Of a DNA stretch of 64,000 nucleotides, positions 31,736 to 62,863 are shown in pieces. The notes below the pieces were generated by a model. It searched no databases. It was not told the DNA's origin and worked only from the letters and a program-made list of their open reading frames with translations. This stretch comes from Amphiscolops sp. MND2022 (taxonomy: Eukaryota). Where the stretch lies: NCBI GenBank assembly GCA_964187785.1, contig OZ076409.1, forward strand, positions 26,042,001 through 26,106,000, in the 5' to 3' direction. Each line of letters begins with the position of its first letter. The first letter of the stretch is position 1. The translations under genes and the position numbers were made by a program.

Positions 31736-31910
31736 CAGTGGATCCCGGATATAAGAAACCCTCTTATAAAAAATACCCGCTTATAGTCAATGCGTATCTT
31801 GGCCCCGATAGCCAATTTAATTTCTTTTGAAAACCCGCTTTTAAGAAAGTTCGATTATAAGAAACACCACTAGTCATTCCCGTGACGTTGATTATATCCG
31901 GGATTCACTG
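31736..31910. mobile_element. Tc1/mariner (pogo-like) MITE
   Basis: TA|CAGTGGATCCCGGATATAA ... TTATATCCGGGATTCACTG|TA. Confidence 0.8.
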
Positions 31911-36805: not shown

Positions 36806-37059
36806 GCCTTCAATCTGCTTTTTTCAATCATCTATCGATTCGTTTTTCATTTGGAAAATTACATTCTACATCTTTTGGAGAATAATCTCTGCTATTAGAC
36901 AACGCGTCGGCCAATAAAATGAGAGCAAAACAACACTGAATTTACAAATAGCTAACAGCTCAAAAGTACTTGAAAGCCTATTCAACAACTACTTGAGAAC
37001 AATACAAAGTAAAACAATGAAAACAGCACACATCTATGTAATGCAATTTTGCTCGAGTT

Positions 37060-37937: not shown

Positions 37938-38131
37938 TTATTCCTTACATTAGTGAACAAGAACTATTACGATTTGTAAAACATTTCATTTAATGCTGTC
38001 TTGTCTAATTGAGTTTTATCCTTTAAGCTTTTTTTTCGAAAACAAAGAGCACAAGAATGAATTATTCAAGTAAAAATTTTAAAAAAAAACATCATGGAAT
38101 CAACAAAGCTGCAAGACAAAACAAAAACAAA

Positions 38132-38509
38132 TTAAATGGTTTGAAAGTTCATTATATACACGGGCTCGCCATCCATAGCCCCCGGCTTCCAACAGTCATC
38201 TTCCTCCTCTAGCGTTACCACGGATGTGTAGGACCAGCCATTTGGCTCGATCGTTGTGTAGAAGGAGGAGAAACTAACTTTTTGGAGTCCTTTCCGTTGC
38301 GCGGGCATGCTCTTGAAGGACGATTTTTCTGGCTGGGGTTGTACTTTCGTAGAGGTTGATGGTGATGGTTCGAGCGGGGTCAAAGCCGGAAACACTCGTA
38401 TATAACAGCTGAATGTGACTGTTTTCCTCAGCGGGGGTCCAAAATTGGAAACCAGCTCGTCGTCGATTTTAAGGCAGGATCGGATTGGCATAGCAGTTGA
38501 ATCATACAT
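38132..38509 (-). CDS. 125-aa Maverick accessory ORF, divergent from PolB, with two RVxF-like motifs
   Basis: ATG-initiated ORF; RSCLK...RKTVTF and KSSFK...QKVSF. Confidence 0.55.
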   Translation of the reverse strand: MYDSTAMPIRSCLKIDDELVSNFGPPLRKTVTFSCYIRVFPALTPLEPSPSTSTKVQPQPEKSSFKSMPAQRKGLQKVSFSSFYTTIEPNGWSYTSVVTLEEEDDCWKPGAMDGEPVYIMNFQTI

Positions 38510-38799
38510 TTTTCAAGACGAGCAATAGGTGATTACTGAGGAAAGCCAGGAAAAGAATTCGAAAAGACTTTAATGTGATTTTAAAGCAAACTGATGATTT
38601 GCAAAATAGTTGAGTGAGCGAAAAGCAAAAAGTTGAAATCAAATAGCTGTTGATATTGATATCAGGCAAAAAGCAAATGATTTTGGGCTGTGGCCAGACA
38701 AGTCAGGCGGCGGCGAGCAACAGCTTGCATTTTTACGAGAGAGTGCTGAGAAAAATTAAACAACAACTCACTTTCTAGGGGAAATTTAACTGCGTAGCG

Positions 38800-39030
38800 T
38801 GTCTAGAGGGGAGGTGTTTCAACAGTTGCGCTTTCTTATCTTGCCGGTTCAAACAAATTCAACCGCCGATTGTCTGGGAGGGGGTGCGTCAGCTTGTCTC
38901 TATATTGCCGGTTCAAACGAGATTAACCGCCGGTTGTCTGAGAGGGGGTGCGTCAGCTTACAATTTTTTTTAAACCGGACAAAACGAGATTGAACGGCGA
39001 TTGTCTAAGTGGGGTGCGTCAGCTTGCGTC
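38800..39030. promoter_or_regulatory. Three to four imperfect ~65-70-bp repeats between the divergent ORFs (candidate bidirectional promoter)
   Basis: ttgtct..ggggtgcgtcagctt occurs three times and ttgccggttcaaac twice. Confidence 0.4.
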
Positions 39031-39337
39031 TGTCGTCGAACCCGAATAACCCCCGATAGCTCAATTTTAAAACGAAATTTCTCAAAAATAAAATCAAAAA
39101 TCTCCAACTTTGTTGCAAATCAGTTACCCTCACAAGCAAAAATTGTTGAAAACTAGATATTCTCACCTGCAATATTTGATTGAAAATACTATTTCAGATT
39201 GAAACTCAAATTCAAAAATCAAATCAAACAGTTAAAGAAACCGAATTCACTTTTTAAAAAACACTTTCTGAGCCCCTTGGGGTATTTCATTCAACAATCT
39301 GATATGGTAGTTTCAATCAAGTATCTATTCAGTCGAA

Positions 39338-42300
39338 ATGAGAACTTGTGACGTTTGCCAAAAATCGTTTGGAAACAAAAATTTACTTCGTCATCATCGG
39401 CGAAATGTTCACAAAATTCCTGCTTATCTCTTTCCCATGGAATGCAATGTTTGCCACAGGATGGAGCTATCTGTCGCACTAATTGATCAACACTTTCGAG
39501 AAAAACATGGAACACAACTGGACAAAATGTGTGTTTATTGCGGAGTTGGGTTCGATATACCTGAACACTTTTACAAACACTTGGAAGAGAAACACGAACT
39601 TCCACCACCTGCTGAATCAACCAAAGAGAAAACGAACCCAATATCATCAGCTTTTGACGGGGCGCTCAAAGTGTACAAAATTGAGGGATCAGGAGAAAAT
39701 GACTTGATGCAGTTCATGACTGACATCAAACCACAAATTGATCAACTGGTTAGCGAAAATGTAAACCGCACTGCCCGTAAACTGCAGCTAATTTTGAAAG
39801 TTGAGCTTTCACAACCAACAAAAGACGAGGAAACTCAAGTCTTTCTTCGCTCAAACATGGTGCCAGTGTATGGTACTAGTCTACCGCAAGACGATTTCCT
39901 CAGTGCAGTGGACCAGTTACTAAACACTTTGTTTACGTTCACAGCTTCTGGAAGTGGATGGATCTTGGAGAAAATTGTCGATCTGGATGTCAAGTTTGCA
40001 ACATTTAGCCCCATTCGAGGATCTTCCTACTTGCCTACTCCGCCCGAACTGGACGCATCGCACTTGCTACTAAACATACGAAACCGTCAAGATCACAATT
40101 GCTTCTTGTATTGTTTCACAGCCGCGTGGCACCTGAAGCACGGACCATTACTCTATGTCGCTGGTCGAGACTCATTAGCAAAGAGAACTAGCCCAGACAC
40201 TTATTCGCGACGCAACCCATTAGCTCATCAAGCTGAAGGCGAGTTTGAAATGCCAATGGGCTTCGGTCAGATGCTTCGATTCGAAAAATTGAATGATTGC
40301 AAAATCAACGTGTTTAGATACACTGAAAATCAACTGGTTCCCCTGCGAGTAACTCGAGAAAAAGGAGATGGCCTAGAAATTGACCTGTTGCTGGTGGATG
40401 ATGGACAAGAGTATCACTATATTCTGATACTTGACTTTTTGAGACTAGTTTCTATGGTGAAAGGAACCACAACACTGTATCAGAGAGTCCTCTGTAAAAA
40501 TTGTTTCCACATTTGCATGAATGAAAACACATACAGACGGCATCAAATCAGTTGCTTGCAACATGAACCAGCAGTAGTCAAAATGCCAACGCCTGAGAAA
40601 AACAAACTGAAGTTCGCGAATTTGGGTGCCCGGTGGTTCGCACCAGTTGTCATATATTTCGATCTGGAATCAATTATCAAACCAGTTGCAGGATGTCAGA
40701 ATGCAAAACAGCAAACAAGTATCACAGAAATTCATCAACCCAGTGGATTCTGCCTTATTGGAATTGAGCATGGGAATCCTAATCCCGTTTTCATGCAACT
40801 AGAGCGCTCTGAAAACTGCATGGAAAAGTTTGTAGGGGCACTTGAAAAGATTGCACAGGAAATGTATCAAAAGAAGCAAAGCAACCGGTACTTTCGAGAC
40901 TCAGTACCCGAAAGGCCTCAAGAAGCCCAACTTTGTTGGATATGCGAAGGTCAATTCGGAATAGTCAGAGACATCGAGGACGACAAGGTTATTGACCACT
41001 GTCATTACTCAGGAAAGTTTTTGGGATTCGCGCATCCGGAATGCAATCTCAAAAGAAAGACAGTCAATTTCATACCAGTCATGGCCCACAATCTGTCGAA
41101 TTACGACCTTCATCACGTGTGCTTATACATTCACAAGTTCAAACCCGGTTGCAAAGTAGACGTGATACCGAATACTGATGAGAAATACATTACCTTGACG
41201 ATCAGAGTACCTGTGAGGAGCTATCTAGACAAAAACGGACTAACAAAAACAGTGTTTGAGTACTTGCGTTTCATTGACTCGTTCAGGTTTATGGCTTCTT
41301 CACTCGAAAAACTTGCAAGCTATCTGCCAAAAGACAAGTTCAAGATACTGGACAGTTGCTTCGCTGACTATTCGGAATCAGACCGAGACCTTTTGCATCA
41401 AAAAGGGTACTACCCTTATTCGTATTTTGATAGTTTTGACAAGTTTCAAGAAGAAGAGCTCCCGCCAAGATATCAATGGACGGACTCACTGCGCAACAAA
41501 GCGATCATGTTGACTCAAGATGAATGGGAACACACAAAGAAGGTTTATGAACGATTCGCTTGCGCAAATTTGGGTGATTATCACGACCTATATCTTAAAA
41601 CTGACACTCTAATATTAGCATGTGTGGTTGAAGAATTTCGGAGCCTATGCTACACTACCTATGGCCTAGACAGCGCCCATTACTTCACCTGCTCGCATTT
41701 GTCTGGAGACGCCTTCTTGAAAAAATGTCGGGCAGACATTGAGCTTCTAACAGATCGCGAGCACCTAGAGATGGTGGAAAATATGATTAGAGGTGGTGTT
41801 GCATCTGTTTTTGACAAGAGGTTCTTCAAAGCGAACAACAGGTACGTGGCCGAGCATAACTATAATGACTACAACACTTACGGAGTGTTATTAGACGCAA
41901 ACAACTTGTATGGGGGTGTTATGGAAAAGTTACCACTGCCATTGAATAGCTTCGAAACAGTTCAAAACATTGATCTCAACAAAATCTTGGAAACAACTAA
42001 CGACTCTGAAGAAGGATACATTCTAGAAGTAGACTTGCATTACCCCGACAAACTTCATGACGGACATCAAGATTTTCCGCTAGCTCCAACAAAAGAGCGA
42101 ATATACTACAAAAGCCTTGGAGAGAAGCAGCAAGAGCTTCTAGAAATAATGGGTGAAACTAGACCTTATAGTCAGGGGACGAAGTTGATTCAGTCACTGT
42201 CAAACAAAAGCAACTACACTGTCCATTATATAACACTGAAGCTCTACGTTAGCCTTGGCATGGAAGTGAAGAAAGTACATCGAGTGTTGAAGTTCAAACA

Positions 42301-43738
42301 AACAAAATGGTTGAAACCATACATGGAGCTAAATACCGCAAAGAGAAAAGAATCTCGAAACAAGTTCGAAGAGAGTTTCTTCAAATTAATGAATAACTCA
42401 TGCTACGGAAAAACGCTCGAGAGCAAGCGAAACCGCCTCACTGTTCAGTTAATAAGCAACCGAGAAAGTCTTTTGAGGAGAACAGACACCCCGTTCTTTT
42501 GTGAGTTTAAAATCTTCAATGAAAATCTTGCAGCTATTTCGTCAAGGAAAAGATCCATCTTGTGGAACAAACCAACAATAGTCGGAGCATCTGTTTTAGA
42601 CTTGGCCAAATTCCACATGTTCAATTTCCACTATAATGTAATGAAAAAGCACCTGAACTGCTTCGTGTTATATTCTGACACAGATTCTCTGTTGTATGAG
42701 ATTAAATACACAGACTTTTATGAAGAGCTAGCAACCAATGATGAGCTCCGCCAGCACTTTGACCTCTCCAATTACCCTAAAGAACATCACCTCTATAACG
42801 CTGATAATAAAATGGTCACACTCAAGTTCAAGGATGAACTCGGAGGAGAGCCAATCGAAGAATTTGTCGGACTAAAACCCAAAATGTATTCAATCATGGT
42901 TGGAGGAAGGCAGAAGCTGTCGGCAAAGGGAGTTTGCCGATTCGCTCAGAAGGAACTGAATCATGAGCTGTACAAAAAAGTATTGAAAACTGGGGAGTCC
43001 TACAAGACTGTAAACATGCGAATAGGCTCGCAAAAGCACCAATTACAAACAATCAAGACGAACAAGGTGTCTCTCAGCTCCTTTGATGACAAGCGTTATG
43101 TATTAGAAGACGGCATCTCAACTTTACCCCATGGTCACTACATGATCAGAGATGTTCATGTTGAGCAAGACATTGTGGATGAACCAGAATGGGGATATGA
43201 AGAGGAAGAGATACCATCAAGTCCCACATGGGACGAATTGAACGGCAATGATCCGCAAGTCACAATCAGCCAAATATTCCCAGATGAAGCTCCGATGCTG
43301 GCAAATGCCCCTCTGTCATCACCATTGCGAGTTCAAGTCAGTGATGATGGGCCAGTCTCTTTAACTCAACAGTTAATGGAAGCATGGTCGCCTCCCGATC
43401 CAGGCATGCACCAAAGAGAGTACAGTGATTCCGAGCTGGAAGACCAATTCAGTAACATGGACGAATCTGTTGAGGAGCGAAGTCCTCCGAGAAATCCCTT
43501 CATTGACGATGAGGCAGTGGAAGCATCAGATACAGGTGAAACTGCACACGAAGATGACGAAGAGTCAGACCCTAACGACTGCGTAATTGTCGAGACACTG
43601 ACAGAAGACGAGGCAAACGCCATAGAAGACTTGGAATACCTAATTGATTTTGACAATTGGTTCAGCGATGACGAGTTTGTGAACAGGATAAAAAGAGCGA
43701 AAAGGAGACGGATGGAGATTGTGAGCGACAGCGAATAA
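39338..43738 (+). CDS. polB: Protein-primed family B DNA polymerase (Maverick pPolB), 1466 aa, intact
   Basis: Three N-terminal C2H2 fingers; GSGW; OTU-like DHNCFLYC..HY; ExoI FDLES; EndoVII/HNH CWIC..DHCH.SG..G.AH..CN; ExoII HNLSNYD; KGYYPY; ExoIII YLKTD; motif A LDANNLYG; motif B KLMNNSCYGK; motif C YSDTDS; KMY; AKGV; DDKRY; acidic tail. Confidence 0.96.
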   Translation: MRTCDVCQKSFGNKNLLRHHRRNVHKIPAYLFPMECNVCHRMELSVALIDQHFREKHGTQLDKMCVYCGVGFDIPEHFYKHLEEKHELPPPAESTKEKTNPISSAFDGALKVYKIEGSGENDLMQFMTDIKPQIDQLVSENVNRTARKLQLILKVELSQPTKDEETQVFLRSNMVPVYGTSLPQDDFLSAVDQLLNTLFTFTASGSGWILEKIVDLDVKFATFSPIRGSSYLPTPPELDASHLLLNIRNRQDHNCFLYCFTAAWHLKHGPLLYVAGRDSLAKRTSPDTYSRRNPLAHQAEGEFEMPMGFGQMLRFEKLNDCKINVFRYTENQLVPLRVTREKGDGLEIDLLLVDDGQEYHYILILDFLRLVSMVKGTTTLYQRVLCKNCFHICMNENTYRRHQISCLQHEPAVVKMPTPEKNKLKFANLGARWFAPVVIYFDLESIIKPVAGCQNAKQQTSITEIHQPSGFCLIGIEHGNPNPVFMQLERSENCMEKFVGALEKIAQEMYQKKQSNRYFRDSVPERPQEAQLCWICEGQFGIVRDIEDDKVIDHCHYSGKFLGFAHPECNLKRKTVNFIPVMAHNLSNYDLHHVCLYIHKFKPGCKVDVIPNTDEKYITLTIRVPVRSYLDKNGLTKTVFEYLRFIDSFRFMASSLEKLASYLPKDKFKILDSCFADYSESDRDLLHQKGYYPYSYFDSFDKFQEEELPPRYQWTDSLRNKAIMLTQDEWEHTKKVYERFACANLGDYHDLYLKTDTLILACVVEEFRSLCYTTYGLDSAHYFTCSHLSGDAFLKKCRADIELLTDREHLEMVENMIRGGVASVFDKRFFKANNRYVAEHNYNDYNTYGVLLDANNLYGGVMEKLPLPLNSFETVQNIDLNKILETTNDSEEGYILEVDLHYPDKLHDGHQDFPLAPTKERIYYKSLGEKQQELLEIMGETRPYSQGTKLIQSLSNKSNYTVHYITLKLYVSLGMEVKKVHRVLKFKQTKWLKPYMELNTAKRKESRNKFEESFFKLMNNSCYGKTLESKRNRLTVQLISNRESLLRRTDTPFFCEFKIFNENLAAISSRKRSILWNKPTIVGASVLDLAKFHMFNFHYNVMKKHLNCFVLYSDTDSLLYEIKYTDFYEELATNDELRQHFDLSNYPKEHHLYNADNKMVTLKFKDELGGEPIEEFVGLKPKMYSIMVGGRQKLSAKGVCRFAQKELNHELYKKVLKTGESYKTVNMRIGSQKHQLQTIKTNKVSLSSFDDKRYVLEDGISTLPHGHYMIRDVHVEQDIVDEPEWGYEEEEIPSSPTWDELNGNDPQVTISQIFPDEAPMLANAPLSSPLRVQVSDDGPVSLTQQLMEAWSPPDPGMHQREYSDSELEDQFSNMDESVEERSPPRNPFIDDEAVEASDTGETAHEDDEESDPNDCVIVETLTEDEANAIEDLEYLIDFDNWFSDDEFVNRIKRAKRRRMEIVSDSE

Positions 43739-43994
43739 AACTCGAGCAAAAATTCTTTTTGCATTACATAGATGTGTGCTGTTTTCATTGTTTTGCTTTG
43801 TATTGTTCTCAAGTAGTTGTTGAATAGGCTTTCAAGTACTTTTGAGCTGTTAGCTATTTGTAAATTCAGTGTTGTTTTGCTCTCATTTTATTGGCCGACG
43901 CGTTGTCTAATAGCAGAGATTATTCTCCAAAAGATGTAGAATGTAATTTTCCAAATGAAAAACGAATCGATAGATGATTGAAAAAAGCAGATTG

Positions 43995-45001
43995 AAGGCC
44001 TTGAAGGCCTCCCTCGCAGGCATAAACGCGACCACGGCCGTTAAATGGAAATAACTTTGCTATAAAAGCAAAATACTGGGCTTAAACGCTGCCCCCGCAG
44101 GCCTTATCGCGGCCCCATAACCGTAAAATGGAAATTGCTAGGCCTAAAAAGCAAAATACTGGGCTTTAATGCCGCCCCCGCAGGCCTAATCGCGGCCCCA
44201 TAACCGTAGAAAGAAAAATGCTTGGCTTAAAAAGCAAAATATTGGGCTTTAATGCCGCCCCCGCAGGCCTCATTGCGGCCCCATAACCGTAAAATGGAAA
44301 TTGCTAGGCTTAAAAAGCAAAATATTGGGCTTCAATGCCGCCCCCGCAGGCCTAAATGCGGCCCACAGCCGTAGATTGGAAAAAGCTTGGCTATAAAAGC
44401 AAAATATTGGGCATAAAAGCCACCCCCGCAGGCCTTATTGCGGCCCCATAAGCGTAAAATTAAAAATGCTTGGCTCAAAAAGCAAAATACTGGGCTTTAA
44501 TGCCGCCCCGCAGGCCTAAATGCGGCCCCATAACCGTAGAATGAAAATTGCTGCTCTGTAAATGCAAAATATTGGGCTTTAATGCCGCCCCTGCAGGCCT
44601 TATTGCGGCCCCATAGCAGTAAAATGAAAAATACTTGGTAGAAAAAGCAAAATACTGGGCTTTAATTCCACCCCGCAGGCCTAATTGCGGCCCCACAGCC
44701 GTAGAATAGAAAATGATTGGCTATAAAAGCAAAATATTGGGCTTTAATGCCGCCCCCGTAGGCCTGATCGCGGCCCCATAACCGTAAAACGGAAAAGGCT
44801 TGGCTATAAAAGCAAAATATTGGGCTTCAAGGCCGCCCCCGTAGGCCTAATCGCGGCCCCACGGCCGTAGAATGGAAAAGGCTTGGCTATAAAAGCAAAA
44901 TATTGGGCTTCAAGGCCGCCCCCGCAGGCCTAAATGCAGCCCCATAACCGTAGAATAGAAAATGATTGGCTATAAAAGCAAAATATTGGGCTTTAATGCC
45001 G
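43995..45001. repeat. Satellite of ~12 x 83 bp (right arm, inverted)
   Basis: Reverse complement of 35805-36805. Confidence 0.95.
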
Positions 45002-45520
45002 ACAGTTCGATAAGAAAATACAAAACTACTAAGTTACAAAAGGTTGTATAAGAGGAATTTGCAGATAGACCGTATTGGGAAAATACTAATATCATACAAA
45101 ACACCTGTAGAAGTCTAAGCCTAATAACATTATTCAACTTTCAAAAATGAGGGTTGGGGAGTTGTCAACAACGTAAACACCGATTGTTTTGAACGTTGAA
45201 AGCACCGCAAAAAACGTCTCGGGTTTACGCTGCTGATCACTCGTGTGTTGGGACAGTTAAACAAATCTTGACAAATAAGCCTAGTCAAAAGATAAAAACT
45301 CACGATTATTTGTTGAATTGTTTTCCAAGTGCATTCAGAACAGCCAACGCCATTGTTATCGTGTTATTTCCATGAGCTGCAAAGAACAAAAAAAACTCAT
45401 AGTCATTCGAAAAAGAAGAGCAGAAATCAAGCAGTAATCAACCCCATTTGTGAATTTACTGAAATGTTATTAGTAGAAAATTTGATGATTCCTTCCGGTG
45501 AGTGCAGGATTGATGGCCGT

Positions 45521-46057
45521 TTAAAGTAAGAGATGAAAAGCAGAAAACTTACTAGATTCGGGCTTAACAATACAGTCCTTGACTCCGATAAGTCGGAGGA
45601 TAAATTGAACAATTGCGGAACCTTCCAGTCCAGCACCCGTTGCAGCAGGAATTAGAATGACTTCAAGTTTGTCGTACTGCCCATGAACTTGTTGAGATAA
45701 AGTGTGTTTTTCTTCTTTTTCTGGGTCAAAGTTTCCGAGAGCAATTTCAAACATCTCGGATTTGGCTTGATCAGTTGCTTTTTCGATGGCTATTTTCTGT
45801 ACTCGGTTGACCTTTATACCGATGCCTACTTTTCCCTTTCCATCGGTAGCAAGTACAAAAGCTCTGTGGCGTACTCTTTGTTTGCCAGATCTTTGGTATT
45901 CGTCTCTCAACGACGTTGTTTTCAAGATTTCGACCTTCAATTCTTCGGCGACTTCATGCTTCTTGGGTGGTGGAGGCAGTAATGCAGCAGGTTCCCCATA
46001 CTCGTAGAAGCCAACTCTTGACTGATCCAGGTCCCATAAACTTCTCAGATAATCCAT
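45521..46057 (-). CDS. uS5 (RPS2)-like ORF, right arm copy
   Basis: Translation identical to the left-arm copy. Confidence 0.8.
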   Translation of the reverse strand: MDYLRSLWDLDQSRVGFYEYGEPAALLPPPPKKHEVAEELKVEILKTTSLRDEYQRSGKQRVRHRAFVLATDGKGKVGIGIKVNRVQKIAIEKATDQAKSEMFEIALGNFDPEKEEKHTLSQQVHGQYDKLEVILIPAATGAGLEGSAIVQFILRLIGVKDCIVKPESSKFSAFHLLL

Positions 46058-47413
46058 AGGGTTTAATCGGCAAGAGAAAAGGGAGAACAAAAACGCAAGA
46101 ACAGATAGAGAACAAAAACGCGAGACAAAAGGGAGAACAAAAAGATAGCTCAAAAGTTGCAGAGGACCGTCTTGTGCAAAAATTTTCAATTTCGAAGGCC
46201 TAGATGTGATTGTTCTAGCTGACTTTCAGATTTGTTACCGAGACTCGACAAGTAAAACAATAAAATTTGATTCAGTAAGGAAAAATGGAGATGAAGAAAG
46301 TTAAGATTTGCAACAACTGGTGTTTCTGACTTGAGACTAGACTGTCACTGTCGAGGCAAACAAAATCTTGCCAACTTTTGCAGTTAAATCAAATCCAAAC
46401 AAAAATGATGCATGAAAGAAAAGAAACTTGACAAAAGAAATTATCAAATGTTTACTTTTCATTTTGAACTGTTTTGTTAACTATTTTACTGAGCTGTAAA
46501 GAAGTTTTGATTATTCCATCCCAGACAGAATGGAAGATAAAAGCAAATGTGAGCCATACTGCATTGGTAGTTTTACCTAGATATTTGCAAGAACAAAACA
46601 TTTTCACCTTTTTGTTTTGTTTTGCCATCGCAAATGAGGGGGGGGGGTTTAAATTCAGGAAGGGGTCGATTGAACGATTCCCATTCACTTACAATGCGCA
46701 TGTTGTGATTCGCAAGTGAGATAAATTGTCTCAATAAGGGGAGAATACCTTCATGTTTAGAGACCACCCAAAGCTGTAGATCTGGGAAAGTGGCTGGATT
46801 TGGCTAGGGCAATAATTGCACGCATATTAAATATAAGTTTCATGAAGCGCAGTCAGTGAATTAAAAGAGATTATTCCCCAATCTTCATTAAATGTTTTCC
46901 GCTATTACATAATCAACTTTCACAAACAAACAGCAAGTGTAACAATTACGGAATAAATTTATCCTGCCGGCGAATTAGAAAAGCGTGTGTCTAGGCTCCG
47001 AAAACGATCAATTTCTTAACAAAAGGAGCAGATCAGCCGAATTACTTCTTTATGGAGGAGGGCGGATATAACTGGGAGCCCACACTGGGGGTTAAAACAA
47101 GACCGCTGGCCTTTCACGTTTTATTTGCCTACCTTTCCTTGAGTTATTTATCATAGCACTAGCATAAATTTGTTCGCCTGACATCAAAATAGTCAAAAAC
47201 TATTCTGATCTGTGCACGATTAGTGCCCAGATCCAAATTGTAGCCAGATCCAATTTGTATATGATACGATTTTGTTACGACACAAATGATACGAATATAA
47301 GATTACGAAATCTTTGAATATGCAATTAGTTGTTGTGCGAGCTGAATTAACTCACCGCTCAGCTAGCGGGAGAATACATTCTGTAATAAGCGTGTTGATA
47401 TTACAGTATTCCG

Positions 47414-47515: not shown

Positions 47516-47572
47516 GTAAAACTAAACCCCCCTATTTCTAACAAGGGTATATAAAATCAAACTACTACCAGG

Positions 47573-50500
47573 TTCATCGCTTATATTCAAACGAAAAATC
47601 TTTTCGAAACACTGGCTGGCACAGCAGTGGAACCCGTTGAACCCGCAGCTTTGGGAGACGCTCCGACGAATGAGCAGAGAGAAGGTCATAGAGTTGCAAC
47701 AGAGGAGTTTGAAAACAATAAGAAGAAATTCCGAAATGACAAAAACACACTGTGGTGCATGCTGGCTCTGACACTTGATTCGACAAGTCTAATGCTGATA
47801 CGACATGATTGTGTTGGAAAAGATGGCCTTGGTGACGGAACCAGAGCATGGAATCTTTTGAAGGAAAGATTCAGAAGTGAAGAATCACCAACAGTTGTGG
47901 CTCTTGTATCTCAAATTGCCAGAATGCGACTGAAACCAGACGAGGCACTGCACGAGTATTTCATCAGAGCACAAGAATTGATGACAAGGCTGAGTGGTGC
48001 AGGTGAACGCATTTCGGAGACGATATTCATGGCGTTGGTTCTCAATGGACTTCCTGAGAGATTCGAGAATTTTATGGTGCAGGAAAGTTTCAACCCATCC
48101 GCCAACTTCACTGAGTTGAGATCGAGATTGACAAACTTCGAGGAAAGCCGCAAGCAACGCAATGGCGAAGAAGAGCAGCAAAATCAGCATGTGGCAATGC
48201 CGTCATGGGGGAAGTTCGAGAAGAGTAGCAGTAAGTCAAAAAGTTTTAATTATAAAAAAAGGAAAAGGCCGAGGAAAGCAAGCGATTGAGTTGTTATTGC
48301 TGTGGTAAAGTCGGTCATATAGCCAAAAATTGTTTTTTGAGAAACAAAGCAGAATGTCGAAAATGTGGTAAAAAAGGACATTTAGACGTTACTTGTAGGA
48401 GTCAAAGTACGGAGAAAACCGCCGTACAAATGCCCAACTCTCAAAGTCTACATTCAGTTCACCTGAGTTCAGGGAGCAAAGTAGTGAGTAAGGACAAAGT
48501 TTTAATTGACTCAGGATGCACAGATCACATTCTGACAGACCGAAAATTTTTCCAAAACCTCAGAGAGATAACGTCTAGCGTAAAAAATCCGGATGGAAGT
48601 TTTTGCAAAATTGAAGGTATTGGAGACGTTGAAGTCGAACTTCGTAATGAAAATGGAAGTACAGACACGTTGATAATGAGGGATGTACTTTTCGTACCAA
48701 GTTATGAAACAAACTTAGTTTCAGTGTCAAAATTAGTCGAAAAAGGACACAGAGTCGAGTTCAGCTCGAACTGTTCGCAATTGAAAACTGAAAAAGGTGC
48801 AAACTACGGAATTGATAGAGAAGGAAGTCTTTATACTATCCAAATGAAACTAGTTGAAAAACCTTTGAGCTTTGCTACGCATGCAAAGAAAATGACTGAT
48901 TTGGAAACATGGCACAAAAGATTATGTCATGCAAATGAGCGAAGTACAAGACTCACGGTACCTAGTTTGAAGAAGTGTGAGTTCTTTTGCGAAACGTGTG
49001 CACTTAGTAAGATTCACGAGAGGCCAGTACCTCGTGAAGCAGGTTCGAAGGCTAGCAAAAAGTTAGAAAGAGTGTATACTGACATAATGGGGCCAATTGA
49101 ACCCGCAAGTATCAATGGTTATCGATATGCTATCACTTTCATTGACGAGTTCACGAAATACGCAGTTGTGAAATTCATGAAATTCAAGTCTGAGGCACTT
49201 GAAAAACTAAAGCAGTATGTAGCGGAAGAAGGCGTACCCGAAAAACTGCGTAGTGATAACGCAAAAGAATATAAAAGTCAAAGTTTTGAAAAATTTTGCG
49301 TTGAGAACAAGATAAAGCGGGAATTTACAGTTCCAGAGACACCGCAACAAAATGGAGTAGCTGAAAGATACAATAGAACGCTAGCAGAGATGACTAGATG
49401 TAACTTGATTGAAGGCAAGCTTTCTAAAATGTACTGGGTTCGGGCGATGGCAACAGCGAATTACACTTTGAATTGCATAACGAACGAGAAAACTAAAAAA
49501 TCTCCATTTGAACTGTTTTTTGGTAAAAAACCTGACTTGACAAAACTTCGGGTATTTGGATGCATAGTGTTCATGCAGAAACGAAAACAGCAACGAAGTA
49601 AACTAGAACCTAGAGGCGTCAAATGTAAGTTTTTAGGCTACGATGATTGTAGTCCATCTTACGTTGTTCAAGAGATTGACTCAGGTCAAATTCATTTTGC
49701 GAGAAATACTATCTTCAATGAGAACGAGATACCGAGCTCAGATTTCAGCGGAGACAGCGTTGTTAGGTCAGATGACGGTTCCATTATCGATATTTTTGAA
49801 AAGATTGCTGAAAAGAAGGCAAATGAAAATTCAACTAATCAAGAGAATGTTGAAACTACAAATTTGCGTACATATGCGCAAGAAGAAGAACAATCCGATG
49901 AAGTCGAAAGTCTCGTTAATGATCAAGCACTATTTGCACATGACGAAGTCAATGTGCATTGCAGTCCAGCTAAGAAAGTTTTTTTTCCACGATAGCCAAC
50001 TTCATAATAAGCGCCTTTTAGAGAAAAGCCAAAACCCCAGAGAGATTCGAACCTGCAGCCTCCCGATTGTGCGGCATAAGTGTTAACCACTGTGCCATAA
50101 GGACGTTATTGAAGGAAGTTGAACTGTTGAATATATACGCATGCGATTAAAATAATATATATACGCATATTAAAATAATCGTTGTCTTCGTCATGTGTTG
50201 CGAAGCACCGCTTCGCCTCTGTGTTGAGGTATGTAATGATGCCACCATGAGTCAAGTAGTTAAAGAAGAGACTGAAGAAAATGACAATAGAGCACAAGGT
50301 ACTTCGTACAGACCTAACCTCAATGACTGTCAAATTGTTCTCGGAGGACAAACTTTTAGATGTTTGCCCCGTGAAAAAATAGTTGATCGCTCAGAAGCGA
50401 GTGAGAAGAAAGAAAAATCACCGTTGAAAAAACTTTTGAGACGAGAATCTCGAAATAGAAGCGTACCAACTAGATATGGTACTACATACACGCATAAAAG

Positions 50501-52050
50501 TGAGAAAGTTGATATTTTTTAGCCAAAAACATATCGTGAAGCTGTCGAAAGCTCAGACAAAGCATTATGGTTAGTAGCAATGCAGCAAGAAATGAATGCT
50601 TTTGCTGAAAATGAAACTTGGAGTTTGGTAGAGAGACCAAAAGATAAAAATGTGATAAACGGAAAATGGGTCTTCAAAGTAAAACTGAATGAAGAAGGCG
50701 AAATAGACAAATATAAAGCAAGATATGTAGCTAAAGGCTATGCTCAAGTGGAAGGAGTTGATTTTAATGAAACATTCGCTCCAACATGTCGACCTGAAAC
50801 ATTCAGAACAGTGTTAGCGATAGCTGCAAGTAGAAATGTTAGCATAGAGCAAATGGATGTAAAGTCTGCATATTTACATTCTGAAATTCAAGAAGAAATT
50901 TACCTAGAGCAGCCTGAAGGATTTGAGAAAGGGAAAAATTTAGTGTGTAAACTGAAAAAGTCTATATATGGCTTGAGACAAGCAGCAAGAAATTGGTACA
51001 ATAAATTACATGATTTTTTGCTAGAAAAAGAAATGACAAAAAGTGCTAACGATCCGTGTCTATTCACAAGAAAAAGTCAAGATAACTTCCTGTACATCTT
51101 AACGTGGGTAGATGATTTTCTGATAGTGGGAAGTAAACCCGAGGACGTTCAAAAACTGAAATATAGTCTTTCCCAAAACTTTAAAATGGAAGATAGGGGC
51201 AAAATCAAACCCTTCTTAGGGCTCAGGATTAGCCAAAATGAAGATGGTATTAGTGTAGATCAGGAAATGTTCATCCAGAACGTGCTTAGAAGGTTCGGAA
51301 TGGAAGATTGTAAGCCTAATGAAACTCCAGCTGAGATGAATCTCAAATTAGAGAGAAGTAGCGAACCGAGTGTGATATAGACGTAACAGCTTATAGAAGT
51401 TTAGTTGGATCATTGCTTTATGTGTCAAAACAAACAAGTCCTGATGTCACTTGGATTACGAATCAGTTATCACGTCATATGCAAAGTCCAACGCAACAAC
51501 ATTGGATTGCAGCAAAAAGAGTTTTGCGATAACTGCAATTCACGAAGACAATGAAGATTGTTTATGACGGAAATTGCGACCTAATACTTCAAGGTGCATC
51601 AGATGCAGATTGGAGTGGAGATGCATCAGATCGGAAGTCAACCACTGGATTCTATTACAAGCTTAGTGACAGTAGCGGAGCAATCAGTTGGAAATGCAAA
51701 AAGCAAAACACAGTCGCCTTATCAAGTTGTGAGGCAGAGTACCATTCATTCCGCAGATGAAACCAACACAAATTGCGGAAGACAATCAGAGTTGCATAAA
51801 ACTATGTAACAATCCAGTATTCCATAAAAGGTCGAAACACATGTCGACAAAATTTCACTACATCAGAGAGAAAGTGGAAGATGGAAGTGTGGAAATATTC
51901 TATCAACCAATTGAAGAAATGGCAGCCGATATTTTCACCAAAGCACTGGGAAAACTGAAGCATGAGAAGCATCGAAACTATTTACTTGGAGAACACCTGT
52001 TGAAAGATGCAGACTTATCCTATAGTGGGAAATTACCTGGAAAAGTCTGA
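47573..52050 (+). pseudogene. Copia gag-pol with frameshifts and stops
   Basis: Two CCHC knuckles; protease LIDSGCTDH; WHKRLCH; integrase YTDIMGP, LRSDNAKEY, PQQNGVAER; RT QMDVKSAYL, WVDD; RNase H SDADW..RKSTTG, EAEY, EDNQSCI. Breaks at ~48287, 49937, 50522, 51380, 51531 and ~51750. Confidence 0.93.
49937..50197. mobile_element. 261-bp MITE (CAC..GTG ends, 3-bp TSD TTG; CMC/CACTA-like) containing a tRNA-like segment
   Basis: CACATGACGAAGTCAATG / CGTTGTCTTCGTCATGTG; minus-strand TGGCACAGTGG..GGTTCGAATC within ~50031-50104. Confidence 0.75.
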
Positions 52051-56831: not shown

Positions 56832-57934
56832 TCACATAGAGAACAAAGGCAAGTCCATGAAGCAAACTGAAATCTTGCGATTCACTTCAAATTCAAGAGG
56901 CATCTCTTCTGTTTTGCCTCCGATGCAATTTGCAGGACCCGTGAAAAACACTTCATTTTCTAAGATTCTGAGTCTCTTCTCAAACCAGATACACGCTTGG
57001 CCACCCCAATACCTGGTGATAACCTCTTTTCCATCTGTGCTTCTCAGCAGTACATTTCCATGCTCATCGCGCGACGTTTCATAACCCAGGTACAGAAACT
57101 GCTTTGGTTCGTTTTGAGGTGCCTCGAGCCAACCTCTTGAGAACAGGTAGTATCTCCAAACATAGTCAATTTCTGCCTCGTCGCGAGGATAAAAAAGTGT
57201 CGCTTGCTTTGTTTCACAAGACGAAACATGACTGGTGAAATTTACACCTGAGCCGGAATGCTCTATGAAAAAGAAACATCTCAGGAAGTGAACATTTATA
57301 TGCCCGTGATTATCGCCGCATTTTTTCTCTACATTTGTTGATTGGATTATGTCTTCCAAAGCTTCATTCAGTACAATTTTCTCCCCAGATAAACTGTTCA
57401 ACTTTCGCCGGCCTCCCAAAAAAGGATGTTCCATGCTCTGCAGGTAAAAAACTACCAAAATACAAATAACACATAACTTGAGCACAGCCAAAAGAGCAAA
57501 ATATCTGCGAAAAAGATAGTTTCCTCTAGATTTTTTAGAAATGCGGGTTTTTTGAGGCAATGATTGCTGCTGTGTTTTAGATGTCTCGTTTTCCGGTTTT
57601 TCAACTCTGTTCATCAACAGGCTCTTGAAAAAAGTTCCCATGGCTATTTGGAATGGTTTGAAGATGATAAGCAACAAAAACGGATTGGCTTGTGAGTAAA
57701 TCATCTGAATCGTAACTCTGTAGAGAGCTACATACTTATAAAGCGAGTATGCCAAAGTTGGCTCCGTGAATCTTCCTTTCTCTGTTAAATCAACTAGCAG
57801 CATGACGTAATTTGGAGACCAGCTGATCACCCAAATAACCAAACTGATGCTGAAAGCTATAGACAAATTCCGATTGCGCTCCTCATTCCTCTCACGTTTC
57901 ATTATCACTCTGCAAATGCCAATGTAAAAGTAAC
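56832..57934 (-). CDS. GPCR exon 3: end of TM5, TM6-7, extra TM, C-type-lectin-like domain
   Basis: YFYIGICRVI; WVISWSPNY; YSQANPFLL; hydrophobic YFALLAVLKLCVICILVVFY; C..RCFFF...NFTSHVSSCETKQATLFYPRDEAEIDYV...YLG. Confidence 0.75.
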
Positions 57935-58257
57935 CTACCGGTCGCGGGGGTGTTAAAGCAAATGTGATTACAACAATAGCTTTCCTGGTTTTTTTTTAAA
58001 TACCAGAATCAAAGAACTCGATAGTATTTCGGGTACAGAATCGAACTATTTAAAAACGAAACGTTCTGTAGTATTCATTAGCACGCGTTTTTCATTCTAA
58101 TGGTCCTGGGTGTAATCCTTCCCGTGATTCGGTGAAAAATTAAAGAATAGTTTTACTTGATGCAAGTTGAATCCCGCGAGGACATGGCTTAATAGTTTTT
58201 GATGAAATTTGGGAAAAATCAAGGAAAACTGCGAGCTTTTTCCTATTTTTTACACCC

Positions 58258-58566
58258 CTGAAACGCTAGCTGGTATGACGAAAAAAATTAATGCTTCGAC
58301 GAGTACTCTGTTCCGTTCCCGATAGAGGAATCCTTGACAGTTGAGGTTGAAATTGCTGATGCTGAAATGCAGTTCCCCATACTCCGCGTTGTAATTGCGG
58401 ACGCTCTGGTAGTCGAAAAAATCAGGAATCTCTAGGTTCATTCTTATGGCATTGGCGATTATTCCTGAACAAGTCAGTAAGGTTATGAATATTGAAATCA
58501 TCCACAAGACTTTTGTAGTCAAGATTTTTGACGTTGGGTGACACACAAGAACGTAGCGAATGAAAG
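58258..58566 (-). CDS. GPCR exon 2: end of TM3 to TM5
   Basis: AFIRYVLVCHP (DRY-like), TM4, ECL2 Cys, LIFFVIP. Confidence 0.8.
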
Positions 58567-59644
58567 CTGTGTTCAAGTAAGGGATGGGAATATATTGATT
58601 CATTTTCAATGCTCTTCCTGAGAAAAATACCTACTATTTGTTTCATCTCGCACAAAAATTAAGGCCAAATCATAATTTCACATGTCTATTAACTACCGTA
58701 TTATTGAAAGAAACAGTTCGATTTCAATTAGTTTGTTATGTATGTCATAAAAAATATTGAATCATTTCTCGAAATAAAACTTGAAATTCAAGGTTGTTTC
58801 CGTTATCCACAAGAGTTAGTAACAAACTCCTTGCATTCATTGATTCAGCTAAGTGAAATACCAGTCACGCACTTTTGGCACTCAGATAACGACGCCACTT
58901 AGTGCAAAAGGTCTTGGAACTCTTGACAAGATCTTGCATATTCCCCGTTTATTCTTGAAAGCCTTAATACGATCTTGTTTATTACGAGCTTGCTTTAAAA
59001 CGAGCTCCTTGCATTACAAAAGCCTCCTTGTCGCAGGGCTATCCGTGCAGCACCGTGAAAAGCATTCAACCCCTCACCCAATTCAAAATACCCGAAGCCT
59101 CAATAAACTCTAAATCCCCGAAACGGATGCCACAAACCATCAAACTTTTACTTCAACTTTAGATTGCTCAAAATATTTGTTGTTATGTTTTGTTGTTGCG
59201 CGTTAATGAACTGAATCGTCTGCAAGGCGGGAGTAACGATATTGTTGCTCTATACAGGTCAAATCTCGACTTTTAGCTACATTACCTCATTTGTGAAACC
59301 GTGGTATCTTATTTGTATCACTCCGTAACATATTAAAATTTGCAGGACGATTACAGCATAAGTATGAGGAAATCTTTTAAAAACAGTAGGATGTTCTGAT
59401 CAGAAAACAGCATTACGATGACACACGCGCCGGTTCTCAAGCATTATGCTGCATTATGGGGTTTGTATAACACAGCATATGCGTAATTTCTGTTGAAACA
59501 GCTTGATGAATATTCACGCGTTGGTGCTCACATATTATACTGTTTCATGCTATTTGCATAAAACAGCATTTGCCGAACAAAACGCCCGCCAAGCACCTGC
59601 ATACTTTCCGCTAAAACTGTAACGCATCAGCGACATCGTATCTC

Positions 59645-60885
59645 CTAGGCAAACGCACTACCAACTACGCCATGGCGACTAGACTTAATTGATTGGAGTG
59701 GTGTTAAGTGGAGTTTTGGCAGAATTTGGAAAAAAAACGCAACACAGACAATAATTCTCATCCCCCATTATATGTGGACGAAAAATCAATAGTGTTGAAA
59801 AAAAACAACATCGTTTGAGCGATACTTTCAACTAATGCGCCGCTGTCACAGCGTTATATTTAGACTTTCTTTGTAAAGGTTGTAAAGGTATTTTTTCGTA
59901 GTATTGGCCCTAGGAACAAAAGTTAATATGAGAACTGTTTGAACGGTAATAATGTTACCAAAAATAACGTCCAATAAAATCACTTAGGAAAAAACTCTGA
60001 AGAAACATAAATTTATAATCATTCACCTGAAGTACTTGAACAAAACAGCTGCCAAATTAAACAAACAACCTCTCTTCAGTGCTAACTGAAAGCTCAACTT
60101 TCTCAACAGTTTCTCGTTCTGTACGCGATATTTTTTTCTGGGATTTCAGTTCACCCACTTTGTTCAAACTTTGAAGAAATCCGCGCCTAACTTTGTTTTC
60201 ATCATGGGAAATAACAGAAATAGGCGCGATCAAGGAGAGTTGAATCTAAATCTCTAGATAGAGGAAAACACTTCAGAAACAAGCTCCGTATATGATCAAT
60301 CGACTTTATTTACAGTTTATGAAAATGTTGATTGTATTTCTTACGAAAATTTAGGCAGTGAATTGATTGAACCTTCACAAACTAGCAATGAAACAGAAAT
60401 TGTTTCTCAAAGACTGGCAGAGCAAGACAACACAAAAACTCCTAATAAGAACCTTGGTAACAGTCTTATCAAGGGTGTCAAGAAACTGTCTACCTAGTGA
60501 AACAAACAACATTACTACACTACTATACTATTACTACATTACTACTATACTAGGCAGACGCACTACCAACTACGCCATGGCGCCATGGCGACTAGATTTT
60601 ATTGAATGGAGTGGAGTGGTGTTAAGTGGATTTTGGCAGAATTTGGAAAAAAACGCAACACAGACAATAATTATCTTCCCCCATTATATGTGGACGAAAA
60701 ATAATAAGTGTTGAAAAAAACAACATCATTTGAGCGATACTTTCAACTAATGCGCCGCTGTCACAGCGCTATATTTATACCTTCTTTGTAAATGATGTAA
60801 AGGTATTTTTTCGTAGTTTTGGCCCTAGAAACATTAGATTTTTATGAAAAGTGTTTGAACGGTGAGAATGTTACCAAAAATAACA
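59645..60885. repeat. Two ~325-bp direct repeat copies (59645-~59968, 60550-~60885) within GPCR intron 1
   Basis: ctaggca.acgcactaccaactacgccatggcg ... aatgttaccaaaaataac in both. Confidence 0.85.
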
Positions 60886-62241
60886 GTTACCGTGAGAAAA
60901 ACAGGAAAGGAACGATGTTCATGATAGTCTTATGAAAACACTCTCGGACATGGCAGCAACAAATTCTGATAATTACGAACAAGAATCGTGTGTGATTTTT
61001 GTCAAAAAATTTTTAATATTAGAAGAAATTAAAAATTGGTGTCTCAATTCCGAAGCGAAAAATTCACAGAAAAGAAACGAATCTCTCAGAAAGAAAACAA
61101 AATCCTTTGTTAAAATCTCAATCATTCGCTGCAGGTAGATTATACTGCACTACGAGTACAATTTGGCTGAGAGTCGAACCATTCGGCTTTTTATCTGAGA
61201 GGAGGTCAAATTTCGAATTAGGTGTTTGGGATGTTCTCCGGGAGATTGTCTTCTTGCGAACCGACCTCGAAATTCCAATGGCATTAAGGTCTGACATCTC
61301 GAGGAGCCTAAAATAAGAATGAGTAGCTCACGAGCTAAGAATCAGAGCTAAGACCATTGTACAGCAACGGGAAAAGGGACACAAGCACTGTATTCTAAAT
61401 TAAGCAGAAAGACTCATTTTCCACTATTTTTGACAGTCAGTAGCAACATGCTAAGCAGTGCGCAAGTTTCAATCTAAATTCAGTCTCAGCGTATTTAGCA
61501 CTTGGCTAATTGAGTCTTTTTACGCATAGTTCTTTCGTTTTTTTTCGGGTCAGCTTTCGGGTGTCTCTGTCTCTTTCTAGTGATTTCGTCCTTTTCAATT
61601 CTGGTATTTGAACTGACACGGGCACCATTAGAGATAAATTATAGTCCGGTCGAATTTTCCAACTGTTGAGCATGTCTATAATAGGAAGACGTTACATATA
61701 ACTTTTTCAGCACTTGTGGTCTGGAATTTCAGTAAGTTCCGGGTCCGATTTTGAAGCAAATCGTTGATGTTTAGATTGTTTTCTACATAACATTAACCTT
61801 CGATCGATTGCACGCCTGTAGCATGTTCATTTTAATGAAACGGCGGTTCTAGAATGTAATTTTGATAAAATCGCTTCTTTCAGGGGCGTCATACAAAACT
61901 TTTTTCAACGGTTGCAAAGGCATCGCAGTGAGGTGATATTTTTTTGAAAATGATATTTTTTTGTGAAAAAGAAACAAATTTTCTCACAAAACCAGGTAAT
62001 TCTTTTTTGTTGGTTCACATCAAAAATTGAGGTTTCTTCGGGCTTATTTCAGTATTCAGAACACTTTCGACTTTTGAGCGTCTTACAAAAGACGAAGAAA
62101 TTCCAACATTAGTTTTGTTTTCTTTCTGTAGATTTAAGCAATTGATCTTTTTTGCTGTTTTGGCAGCTTATTCGAGGCAACTTCTTCATTCTCGTTTGTA
62201 AAGTTTGTCCACATTTTTTTAGCAAAACGGTTTTCTCATCC

Positions 62242-62863
62242 CTGTGCCGACAATGCACCATCCTGTCGAGTACTCATTCAACATTGATCGTAGGAAGATA
62301 ATAATACACCCCGAGTATGAGTTTTCAGAACCATGCATAGATCTCTCAAACACATTTTCGGAGGATTTAAGCAAAAATATCAAAGAAAACTTGAATGTCT
62401 TCTTCACTTCTCTCACCATATTGTAGCCTCGAACTTCAGCCATGAAATTGGCAACTCCAGGGCCAATTAGATCTGTTGCAGCTTGGATGCACAGAGGCAA
62501 AAACTTTAGATCCCGAAGTTCCTTCTCGGTCAAGCAGAACACAATCAATGATAAGTTCAAGAAAATGCAGGAAACACTCAGCATGCAGCTTCCAACTGCT
62601 TTCCACAGAAACGAAGGGTACACAATTTCCCACGAGTCGAAATCATAGTAAGAGTCTTCGAATCGGTCCGGGGGAATCCCCTCTGTTCCCTGGGGTGATG
62701 TAGTTATACTTTCTGGAGTCGATGACCATCCAGAATGCCAATGTCCAGGAGGATACCACCATGTGGAAAAATGAGGCAGGGTGGGGAAGTGTGATCCAGA
62801 TTGTTCGTAGCTCCTTGGATATGCGCTCCCAAATTGCGGCATTGAGCTATGTATTGAGCCCAT
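62242..62863 (-). CDS. Rhodopsin-like GPCR exon 1: N-terminus to TM3
   Basis: TM1 CIFLNLSLIV, LR, TM2 QAATDLIG, TM3 C..FLRSMLNEYSTGWCIVGT. Confidence 0.8.

What the first reader, a model, noticed from the sequence alone, without database searches (positions are those of the whole stretch)
57935..62241. Two non-canonical GG..AG 'introns' with hAT-like inverted repeats in an otherwise intact gene
Seen (minus strand): ACAG|GGATGAGAAAA...TATTCCCATCCCTTACTTGAACACAG|CT (62241-58567, 3675 bp) and TCAG|GGGTGTAAAA...TTTAACACCCCCGCGACCGGTAG|GT (58257-57935, 323 bp). Excision joins 622+309+1103 = 2034 nt with no stop and restores IVGT-AFIRY and VSG-YFYIGIC. Both begin CAG|GGRTG, which resembles the Ac/hAT TIR CAGGGATGAAA. 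Both have an 11/13 inverted copy ending 10-12 nt before the final AG, and neither has an 8-bp TSD. The long one has accumulated internal repeats while the exons stayed open. The SLC7 introns in this window are ordinary GT-AG. Inference: a transposon-derived (introner-like), structure-guided intron class with GG donors.
Basis: partly seen in the sequence, partly recalled or inferred. Interest (0 to 1): 0.88.

Follow-up and report, generated by a model that had tools for sequence, protein, structure and literature searches.

The report
Transposon-made GG-AG introns in an acoel
Two old DNA-transposon insertions in a receptor gene of a marine acoel worm look as if they are spliced out as introns that start GG instead of the usual GT, and related genes in the same genome show the same thing, but no RNA was available to prove the splicing.

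Summary
Removing two inserts (3675 and 323 bp, both CAG|GG...AG) gives a 677-codon frame of an acoel-expanded class A GPCR-like family. Most paralogues read through both sites, so the inserts are gains. An aligner with no splice-motif bonus recovers both lengths, and the gene keeps 50 of 53 family-conserved residues.

It is not a one-off. Of 27 resolved breaks in the family, 9 have GG or GA donors, all after CAG. Paralogues sharing a GA intron (4 genes) or a GG intron (2 genes) show dN/dS 0.27-0.47 and no stops. That GG intron is a whole copy of a very abundant GG-ended MITE with an 8-bp target duplication. Intron 2 of the window starts with the end of a hAT-like MITE family.

Best reading: introner-like gains from several 8-bp-TSD transposons, spliced by a spliceosome tolerant at +2, as in Eurytemora and Oikopleura. 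Against or open: no transcript was seen; 0 of 25 resolved CCT and SLC7 introns use such donors; no U1 copy changes the +2-reading base; 'structure-guided' splicing is only suggested; the TIR-to-AG spacing (12 and 10 nt) misses the ideal 11.

The parts
62242..62863 (-). Exon 1 (622 nt), N-terminus to mid TM3 of a class A GPCR-like protein
   Evidence: family fold
58567..62241 (-). Intron 1, 3675 bp, phase 1, GG donor after CAG, AG acceptor; decayed element with nested repeats
62231..62244 (-). 5' terminal repeat of insert 1; its first three bases are the last three of exon 1
   Evidence: 20 copies against 4 control; weak as a family
58579..58592 (-). Inverted copy near the 3' end of intron 1, ending 12 nt before the intron end
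60550..60884 (.). Nested repeat copy B inside intron 1
59645..59968 (.). Nested repeat copy A inside intron 1 (about 88-91% like copy B in ungapped blocks; flanks differ)
58258..58566 (-). Exon 2 (309 nt), mid TM3 to mid TM5
57935..58257 (-). Intron 2, 323 bp, phase 1, GG donor after CAG, AG acceptor; MITE-sized; no T-rich tract directly before the AG
58248..58260 (-). 5' terminal repeat of insert 2, identical to the end of a hAT-like MITE family
57945..57957 (-). Inverted copy (11/13) ending 10 nt before the end of intron 2; pairs with the 5' end in the predicted fold
56832..57934 (-). Exon 3 (1103 nt), mid TM5 to stop; TM6-7, a further hydrophobic helix and a cysteine-rich C-terminal domain
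   Evidence: a second allele is also open

Best explanation
Both inserts are old non-autonomous DNA transposons that became real spliceosomal introns in an ancestrally intronless GPCR-like gene of an acoel. Shown: the inserts are gains, they carry element ends, and exact removal at CAG|GG...AG restores the family sequence. Inferred: cut-and-paste elements with 8-bp target duplications supply the splice sites. An insertion beside an exonic AG|G leaves AG|G at the 5' side and an AG at the 3' side, and intron base +2 is whatever the element end or the duplicated target supplies. TAG-ended elements give GT, CAG-ended ones give GC, or GG if the donor falls inside the terminal repeat as here, GG-ended MITEs give GG, and a donor inside the duplication can give GA. 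The major spliceosome accepts these donors when the exon ends in CAG and +3 is usually a purine, probably with an unchanged U1. Such donors seem to be a minority concentrated in gained introns.
For: Empty sites: 24 of 29 paralogue loci read through site 1 and 26 of 29 through site 2; nearest relatives are intronless. Motif-free alignment gives the exact lengths; the best GT/GC alternative scores 9.1 and 25.6 lower. 50 of 53 conserved residues are kept, against fractions of 0.88-1.0 in 11 intronless members; simulated neutral decay of 5% leaves no stop in under 1% of 400 runs. Family census: 39 supported breaks, 27 resolved: GT 9, GC 2, GA 5, GG 4, other 7; all 9 GA/GG follow CAG. Shared GA intron in 4 paralogues: dN/dS 0.30-0.47; shared GG intron in 2: 0.27 and 0.35; GT control trio 0.22-0.48; no stop in any of the 9. 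The shared GG intron matches 13 of 13 MITE copies (best 73% over nt 1-331 of 416), whose duplication is 8/8 in 9 and 7/8 in 3; its own is 7/8. A GC-AG intron in CCT5 has terminal repeats, a 7/8 duplication and an intronless 98-99% paralogue. Precedent: GA/GG donors after an obligate AG in Eurytemora (PMC5714493).
Against: No transcript was seen. 0 of 21 resolved CCT introns and 0 of 4 SLC7 introns have CAG|GG or CAG|GA, so no essential gene vouches for these donors. The window gene has no close paralogue, so its own dN/dS was not measured. TIR-to-AG spacing is 12 and 10 nt, whereas frame-neutral geometry for a CAG-ended element needs 11 (or 8 with an extra codon): a 1-nt intronic indel must be assumed each time, and both target duplications are gone. 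The margin for intron 1 over the upstream GC donor is modest (9.1). 7 of 27 resolved breaks scored best at a non-G donor, so margins near 5-8 are within noise. All 20 U1 copies read keep the base that reads +2. Loci were chosen for broken matches, not at random.
Confidence: 0.8

Rival explanations
1. The gene is a transposon-disrupted pseudogene of a birth-and-death receptor family, and the clean removal is chance.
For: Large, fast-turning family (at least 119 matches) with some frameshifted copies; housekeeping genes examined lack such donors; two alleles differ at 12 of 355 residues in exon 3.
Against: The inserts look old (duplications lost; no other copy of the intron 2 interior, though that search skips common words), yet 2034 nt hold no stop or frameshift and 50 of 53 conserved residues remain. 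Both removals are zero-indel at AG|G...AG. Paralogues sharing GA or GG introns are under purifying selection on both sides.
Confidence: 0.08
2. The gene works, but through nearby canonical sites (GC donor 6 nt upstream for intron 1; internal GT with a downstream AG for intron 2), or through RNA editing of +2.
For: GC donors are common here (4 of 21 resolved CCT introns); a GC site exists and costs only two residues; U1 is unchanged at the +2-reading base.
Against: The alternatives delete 2 residues of TM3 and 7 of TM5, including an aromatic pair conserved in the family. In paralogues the best canonical alternative is 8-28 units worse for the 7 other resolved GA/GG breaks. Two homologous introns at one site carry GA in one gene and GT in the other with the same ends (L145, L153).
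Confidence: 0.1
3. Variant of the best explanation: the retained terminal inverted repeats form an RNA stem that is needed to bring the splice sites together (structure-guided splicing).
For: Terminal helix in both the minimum-energy and centroid folds of intron 2. In the GA quartet only the first 25-35 nt and the 3' end stay alike between distant copies, while lengths run 398-978. In the GT trio two introns give no BLAST match to each other yet keep both ends. Target duplications decayed while the repeats did not. Several of these introns lack a T-rich 3' tract.
Against: Fold z only -1.73; 6 of 100 shuffles fold as well. Conserved ends also occur in GT introns, so they do not explain GG specifically. 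Gene conversion among clustered paralogues could homogenise exon-adjacent bases. No pooled statistic or covariation test was obtained.
Confidence: 0.35

Closest known systems
GA/GG 5' donors of the copepod Eurytemora affinis and the tunicate Oikopleura dioica (PMC5714493, part 1 of 2 read; PMC7072748, passages)
   Same: Non-GY donors after an obligate exon-terminal AG, mostly A at +3, ordinary AG acceptor, recently gained introns.
   Different: There about 10-12% of introns in diverse genes, RNA-supported, GA far more common than GG, and no transposon origin named in the parts read. Here GG is about as common as GA, element ends are visible, none was found in 25 housekeeping or transporter introns, and RNA is lacking.
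Introners (PMC9860276 and PMC12130899, passages; review PMC11282704, main text)
   Same: TIR DNA transposons becoming introns, with splice sites taken from the element, the target duplication or flanking exon; empty sites in relatives.
   Different: Those surveys detect young families of near-identical introns. Here the elements are old, diverged, 0.3-3.7 kb, from several families, and only a small share of copies seem intronic. 'Acoel' has 0 occurrences in both main texts; their supplements were not read.
MITE-derived non-canonical introns of Fritillaria borealis (via review PMC11282704; PMC13326754, passages)
   Same: Animal, MITE origin, TIR and TSD at non-canonical borders.
   Different: Fritillaria uses mainly AG-AC/AG-AT borders in most introns, with changed U2AF and snRNA modification. 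Here +1 G and the 3' AG are kept and only +2 is relaxed.
hAT and Merlin DNA transposons
   Same: 8-bp duplications; CAG/TAG ends for the hAT-like families (hAT hallmarks recalled, not from a call); GG ends with 8-9 bp duplication define Merlin (PMC8101967, passages).
   Different: No transposase was tied to these non-autonomous ends; the window copies have lost their duplications.
Euglenid nonconventional introns (review PMC11282704)
   Same: Terminal inverted repeats set a few bases in from the intron ends.
   Different: Those lack G/AG borders and are not removed as lariats; the acoel introns keep AG|G...AG, the spliceosomal signature.

Membership tests
Introner-derived intron | Empty site in related genes (gain) | tested here: met
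   24 of 29 and 26 of 29 paralogue loci read through; nearest relatives intronless
Introner-derived intron | Exact removal restores the reading frame at spliceosomal borders | tested here: met
Introner-derived intron | Splicing shown in RNA | not testable with these tools
   no run could be laid on the locus
Introner-derived intron | Several introns at unrelated sites similar along their length | tested here: not met
   Window introns: intron 2 interior has no other copy and neither matches another family intron end to end. Only the paralogue intron L139/L142 matches a MITE family along its length.
hAT MITE (intron 2) | Short terminal repeat shared with a multicopy family that makes 8-bp duplications | tested here: met
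   203 against 13 control; of 9 distinct elements with a partner end at 1 mismatch or fewer, 6 have 8/8 and 1 has 7/8 (30 loci read)
hAT MITE (introns 1 and 2) | 8-bp duplication at this insertion | tested here: not met
   2/8 for intron 2, about 3/8 for intron 1; decay is the inferred cause
hAT MITE (intron 1) | Terminal repeat shared with a multicopy family | tested here: inconclusive
   20 against 4 control; 6 of 20 are one unrelated repeat, and none has a partner end at 2 mismatches or fewer within 1.5 kb
hAT | Autonomous partner: hAT transposase flanked by the same ends | tested here: inconclusive
   At least 150 PF05699 matches; of 8 loci read, one has a 12/14 match to the intron 1 end 1.3 kb downstream, the rest are worse
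Merlin MITE (paralogue intron L139/L142) | GG termini with 8-9 bp duplication | tested here: met
   3314 against 21 control; 8/8 in 9 of 13 and 7/8 in 3; definition from PMC8101967
Merlin MITE (paralogue intron L139/L142) | DDE_Tnp_IS1595 transposase partner | not tested
   no search of the genome was left for it
Eurytemora/Oikopleura-type GA/GG donors | Obligate AG at the exon end | tested here: met
   9 of 9 resolved GA/GG breaks follow CAG
Eurytemora/Oikopleura-type GA/GG donors | About 10% of introns across ordinary genes | tested here: inconclusive
   0 of 21 resolved CCT and 0 of 4 SLC7 introns; 21 further CCT breaks were unresolved; small sample
Eurytemora/Oikopleura-type GA/GG donors | U1 variant complementary to the odd donor (proposed, not established, in PMC7072748) | tested here: not met
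   20 of 23 U1 matches read; all keep the base that pairs with +2
Class A GPCR (host gene) | Seven-helix rhodopsin-like fold | tested here: met
   Model of paralogue L018 (mean pLDDT 60) hits class A receptors, best E 5.6e-7; Pfam 7tm_1 only E 0.18 on exon 3

The most novel reading that the evidence does not exclude
Acoels are a further animal lineage with a spliceosome relaxed at intron position +2, and here the origin of the odd donors is visible. Several 8-bp-TSD transposon superfamilies become introns, the element end or target duplication dictates the donor dinucleotide, and the terminal inverted repeat is then kept by selection as an RNA stem that stands in for the missing U at +2 and the missing pyrimidine tract, with U1 unchanged.
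Probability: 0.3. Interest if true: 0.85.

Novelty: new variant of a known kind. Interest (0 to 1): 0.7.

Why it matters
GA/GG donors at appreciable frequency were reported in the papers read for two animals (a copepod and a larvacean), with their origin unexplained. An acoel case that ties them to identifiable transposon ends and target duplications would supply that origin, and it gives natural GT/GC/GA/GG series at homologous or identical sites for testing how +2 is read. An ancestrally intronless receptor family with many independent gains, three at one proto-splice site, is a clean system for intron gain in animals. Practically, GT/GC-only annotation would split or drop part of a large acoel receptor family and could make working genes look like pseudogenes.

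Tried and rejected
RNA: no RNA holder was listed; this is no evidence either way. A scan of metagenome contigs with part of exon 3 found 201 pattern matches, none confirmed. A search for longer homologues of exon 3 found none among 2224 candidates. Of 150 representative proteins, none at 50% identity or more spans a GG or GA junction; the close ones are single-exon gene calls, and the 9 family clusters looked up are all ENA assembly calls. The earlier-findings index was empty.

A 3'-end pattern with a C in place of T gave 159 against 57 control, and none of 30 loci had a 5' partner, so I found no such subfamily.

A single ancestral intron at site 2 shared by the window gene, L125 (GC) and L022 (GT) was rejected as a clade (p-AU 3e-49; 38 rows, group named before the tree). 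Parallel gain is favoured, though one gain plus losses remains possible for the window gene and L125.

The mixed CCT search returned only CCT5 in its top 120, so half of the CCT breaks stayed unresolved; the motif-weighted rerun over-fitted micro-exons and was not counted. The first census filter passed 122 breaks, many spurious; 83 were dropped for lacking tblastn support on both sides and 12 more as unresolved. Dating the insert from the two internal repeats was dropped because their flanks differ. L119, L120 and L122 introns give no BLAST match to the GG-ended MITE; their link rests on the ends alone.

A pooled test of terminal pairing, target duplication and donor consensus across all curated introns was not obtained, so the stem claim rests on single loci. 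Seven literature searches listed no paper on non-canonical donors in acoels; two key papers were not held, and the introner datasets in supplements were not read and could list an acoel.
Full report
Observation. On the minus strand the two inserts are 62241-58567 (3675 bp) and 58257-57935 (323 bp). Both begin GG after CAG and end AG, and removal gives 2034 nt, 677 codons and one terminal stop. The inverted copy near the end of intron 2 is 11/13, matched by 0 of 1866 background windows. For intron 1 it is 10/13 from the CAG (11/13 from the AG), matched by 6 of 1866. Neither site keeps an 8-bp duplication. The neighbouring SLC7 gene has 4 of 4 GT-AG introns.

Organism and gene. The genome is 1.07 Gb. 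The window's SLC7 protein is 78% identical to one from Symsagittifera roscoffensis and about 54% or less to vertebrate ones, so this is an acoel (inference). The gene belongs to a family with at least 119 matches. A model of an intronless paralogue matches class A GPCRs. The junctions fall in TM3 and TM5.

The inserts are gains. Of 29 paralogue loci, 24 read through site 1 and 26 through site 2. The five exceptions at site 1 have introns a few codons away; at site 2, two have an intron at the same place (GC and GT donors) and one is frameshifted. The window gene sits among intronless genes, and the three genes with an intron at site 2 are rejected as a clade.

Where the borders are. An aligner with no motif bonus returns exactly 3675 and 323 nt; for intron 1 that run slid the borders 11 nt upstream, at the same length. 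With all AG acceptors and all donors within 60 nt scored, GG wins at both, and the best GT/GC option is 9.1 and 25.6 units lower. The first margin is modest. The alternatives would delete two residues of TM3 and seven of TM5.

Is the gene alive? It keeps 50 of 53 family-conserved residues; 11 intronless members keep fractions of 0.88-1.0. Simulated neutral substitution of 5% leaves no stop in under 1% of 400 runs, ignoring indels. The inserts look older than that: the duplications are gone and intron 2's interior has no second copy (a search that skips common words). A second allele known only from assembly gene calls also runs into intron 1 and has an open exon 3 with 12 changes in 355 residues. 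None of this is RNA evidence.

Family census. In the window and 47 paralogue stretches chosen for broken matches, 122 candidate breaks passed a first filter, 39 had independent support on both sides, and 27 were resolved by 5 units or more: GT 9, GC 2, GA 5 (two events), GG 4, non-G 7. All nine GA/GG follow CAG. Of the seven non-G, five lie in variable loops, one reads equally well as GT-AG, and one has no nearby AG. Further likely cases below the filter are two more GG and one GA in L126, GG in L139/L142, and GA in L145, whose homologous intron in L153 is GT with similar ends. Four paralogues share a GA intron of 398-978 bp and show dN/dS 0.30-0.47 on both sides. Two share a GG intron with 0.27 and 0.35. 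A GT trio gives 0.22-0.48. None of the nine has a stop. This is the strongest argument that such introns are removed.

Housekeeping control. In eight CCT genes 21 of 42 breaks resolved directly: 17 GT and 4 GC, none CAG|GG or CAG|GA (references existed only for CCT5). The odd donors are therefore not shown in essential genes and may be confined to gained introns.

Transposon origin. The 13-mer at 58260-58248 occurs 203 times against 13 for the control. Of 9 distinct elements with a good partner end, 6 have an exact 8-bp duplication and one 7/8. hAT transposases are abundant (at least 150 matches) but none was tied to these ends. The end of intron 1 is a weak family (20 against 4; no paired copies). 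A second family has GG ends, 3314 matches against 21, about 410 bp, and 8/8 duplications in 9 of 13 copies, which fits the Merlin definition in PMC8101967 (passages). The L139 GG intron is one such copy plus its 7/8 duplication. TAG-ended elements give the GT trio, with a 6/8 duplication in L130. A CAG-type element gives a GC-AG intron in one CCT5 copy, with a 7/8 duplication and an intronless 98-99% twin.

Mechanism (inferred). Insertion with an 8-bp duplication beside AG|G supplies both an exon-terminal AG|G and an acceptor AG; base +2 comes from the element end or the target. In the window the donor lies inside the terminal repeat, so the exon gains three bases and the acceptor should lie 11 nt past the element. 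The observed 12 and 10 (10 also in L124) need a later 1-nt indel each; this is unexplained. The spliceosome then accepts AG|GN donors. Of 23 U1 matches, 20 were read: 13 are canonical over the first ten bases, five differ at one base, two have replaced 5' ends, and all keep the base that reads +2. Any tolerance must lie elsewhere.

Structure-guided splicing. Intron 2 folds with a terminal helix, but z is -1.73 and 6 of 100 shuffles do as well. Ends are kept while interiors diverge in the GA quartet and in the GT trio, which hints at selection on a stem but is not specific to GG and could reflect gene conversion. No pooled test was obtained.

Comparison. Eurytemora has about 12% GA/GG donors with an obligate upstream AG, RNA-supported (PMC5714493, part 1 of 2); Oikopleura is similar (PMC7072748, passages). 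Introners recruit splice sites from elements, duplications or exons (PMC9860276, passages; PMC12130899, passages; review PMC11282704, main text). Fritillaria has MITE-derived introns with other borders (same review; PMC13326754, passages). The S. roscoffensis genome paper does not mention odd donors in the passages seen (PMC9911081). Seven searches listed nothing on acoel non-canonical donors; supplements were not read.

Verdict. Real, and part of a family-wide pattern. About 0.8 that these are spliced GG-AG introns of transposon origin, about 0.35 that the terminal stem matters. It works like introner gain combined with copepod/larvacean-type donor tolerance. It is not shown to be a young introner family. 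New variant of a known kind; interest 0.7.

Noticed in passing
L134:1673-5802 (+) and L135 near 2740 (-): Two paralogues share an intron whose best acceptor reads AT, not AG, with no AG in the 55 nt before it in L134; the donor in L134 is GT after CAG. Possibly a non-canonical acceptor or a shared broken site.
   Followed up: partly
L176, L182, L183 (U1 loci): Three U1 copies carry A instead of U at position 6, which would pair with T at intron +3; several CCT donors have T at +3, including three GC donors with the same six bases.
   Followed up: no
L105:1165-6863 and L092: Two CCT5 copies, 98-99% identical: one intronless, one with a 5.7-kb GC-AG intron that has terminal repeats and a 7/8 target duplication. 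A filled/empty pair in a conserved gene.
   Followed up: partly
L104-L115 (CCT genes): GC donors are 4 of 21 resolved introns, far above the usual animal level of about 1% (recalled).
   Followed up: partly
window 56832-57500: The receptor family has an extra hydrophobic helix after TM7 and a cysteine-rich C-terminal domain that looks like a C-type lectin fold (resemblance recalled, not tested; model confidence low). No named homologue was found.
   Followed up: no
L126: One paralogue appears to carry four gained introns in its first 360 codons, three GG and one GA; its 3' part was not resolved.
   Followed up: partly
window 33500-47300: Large inverted duplication with 83-bp arrays and a ribosomal-protein-S5-like frame in each arm, around a 1475-aa frame resembling a protein-primed DNA polymerase, as in Polinton-type elements (labels recalled from the translations).
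   Followed up: no
window 47555-52050: Copia-like gag-pol frames, broken into several pieces (label recalled from the translations).
   Followed up: no
window 21066-31786: SLC7A9-like transporter gene with four GT-AG introns; the 7.6-kb third intron holds a 173-bp tandem repeat and duplicated repeat frames.
   Followed up: yes
G000 genome-wide; L212-L224: A GG-ended MITE of about 410 bp with at least 3314 end matches, also nested inside other family introns (L121, L124, L126).
   Followed up: partly
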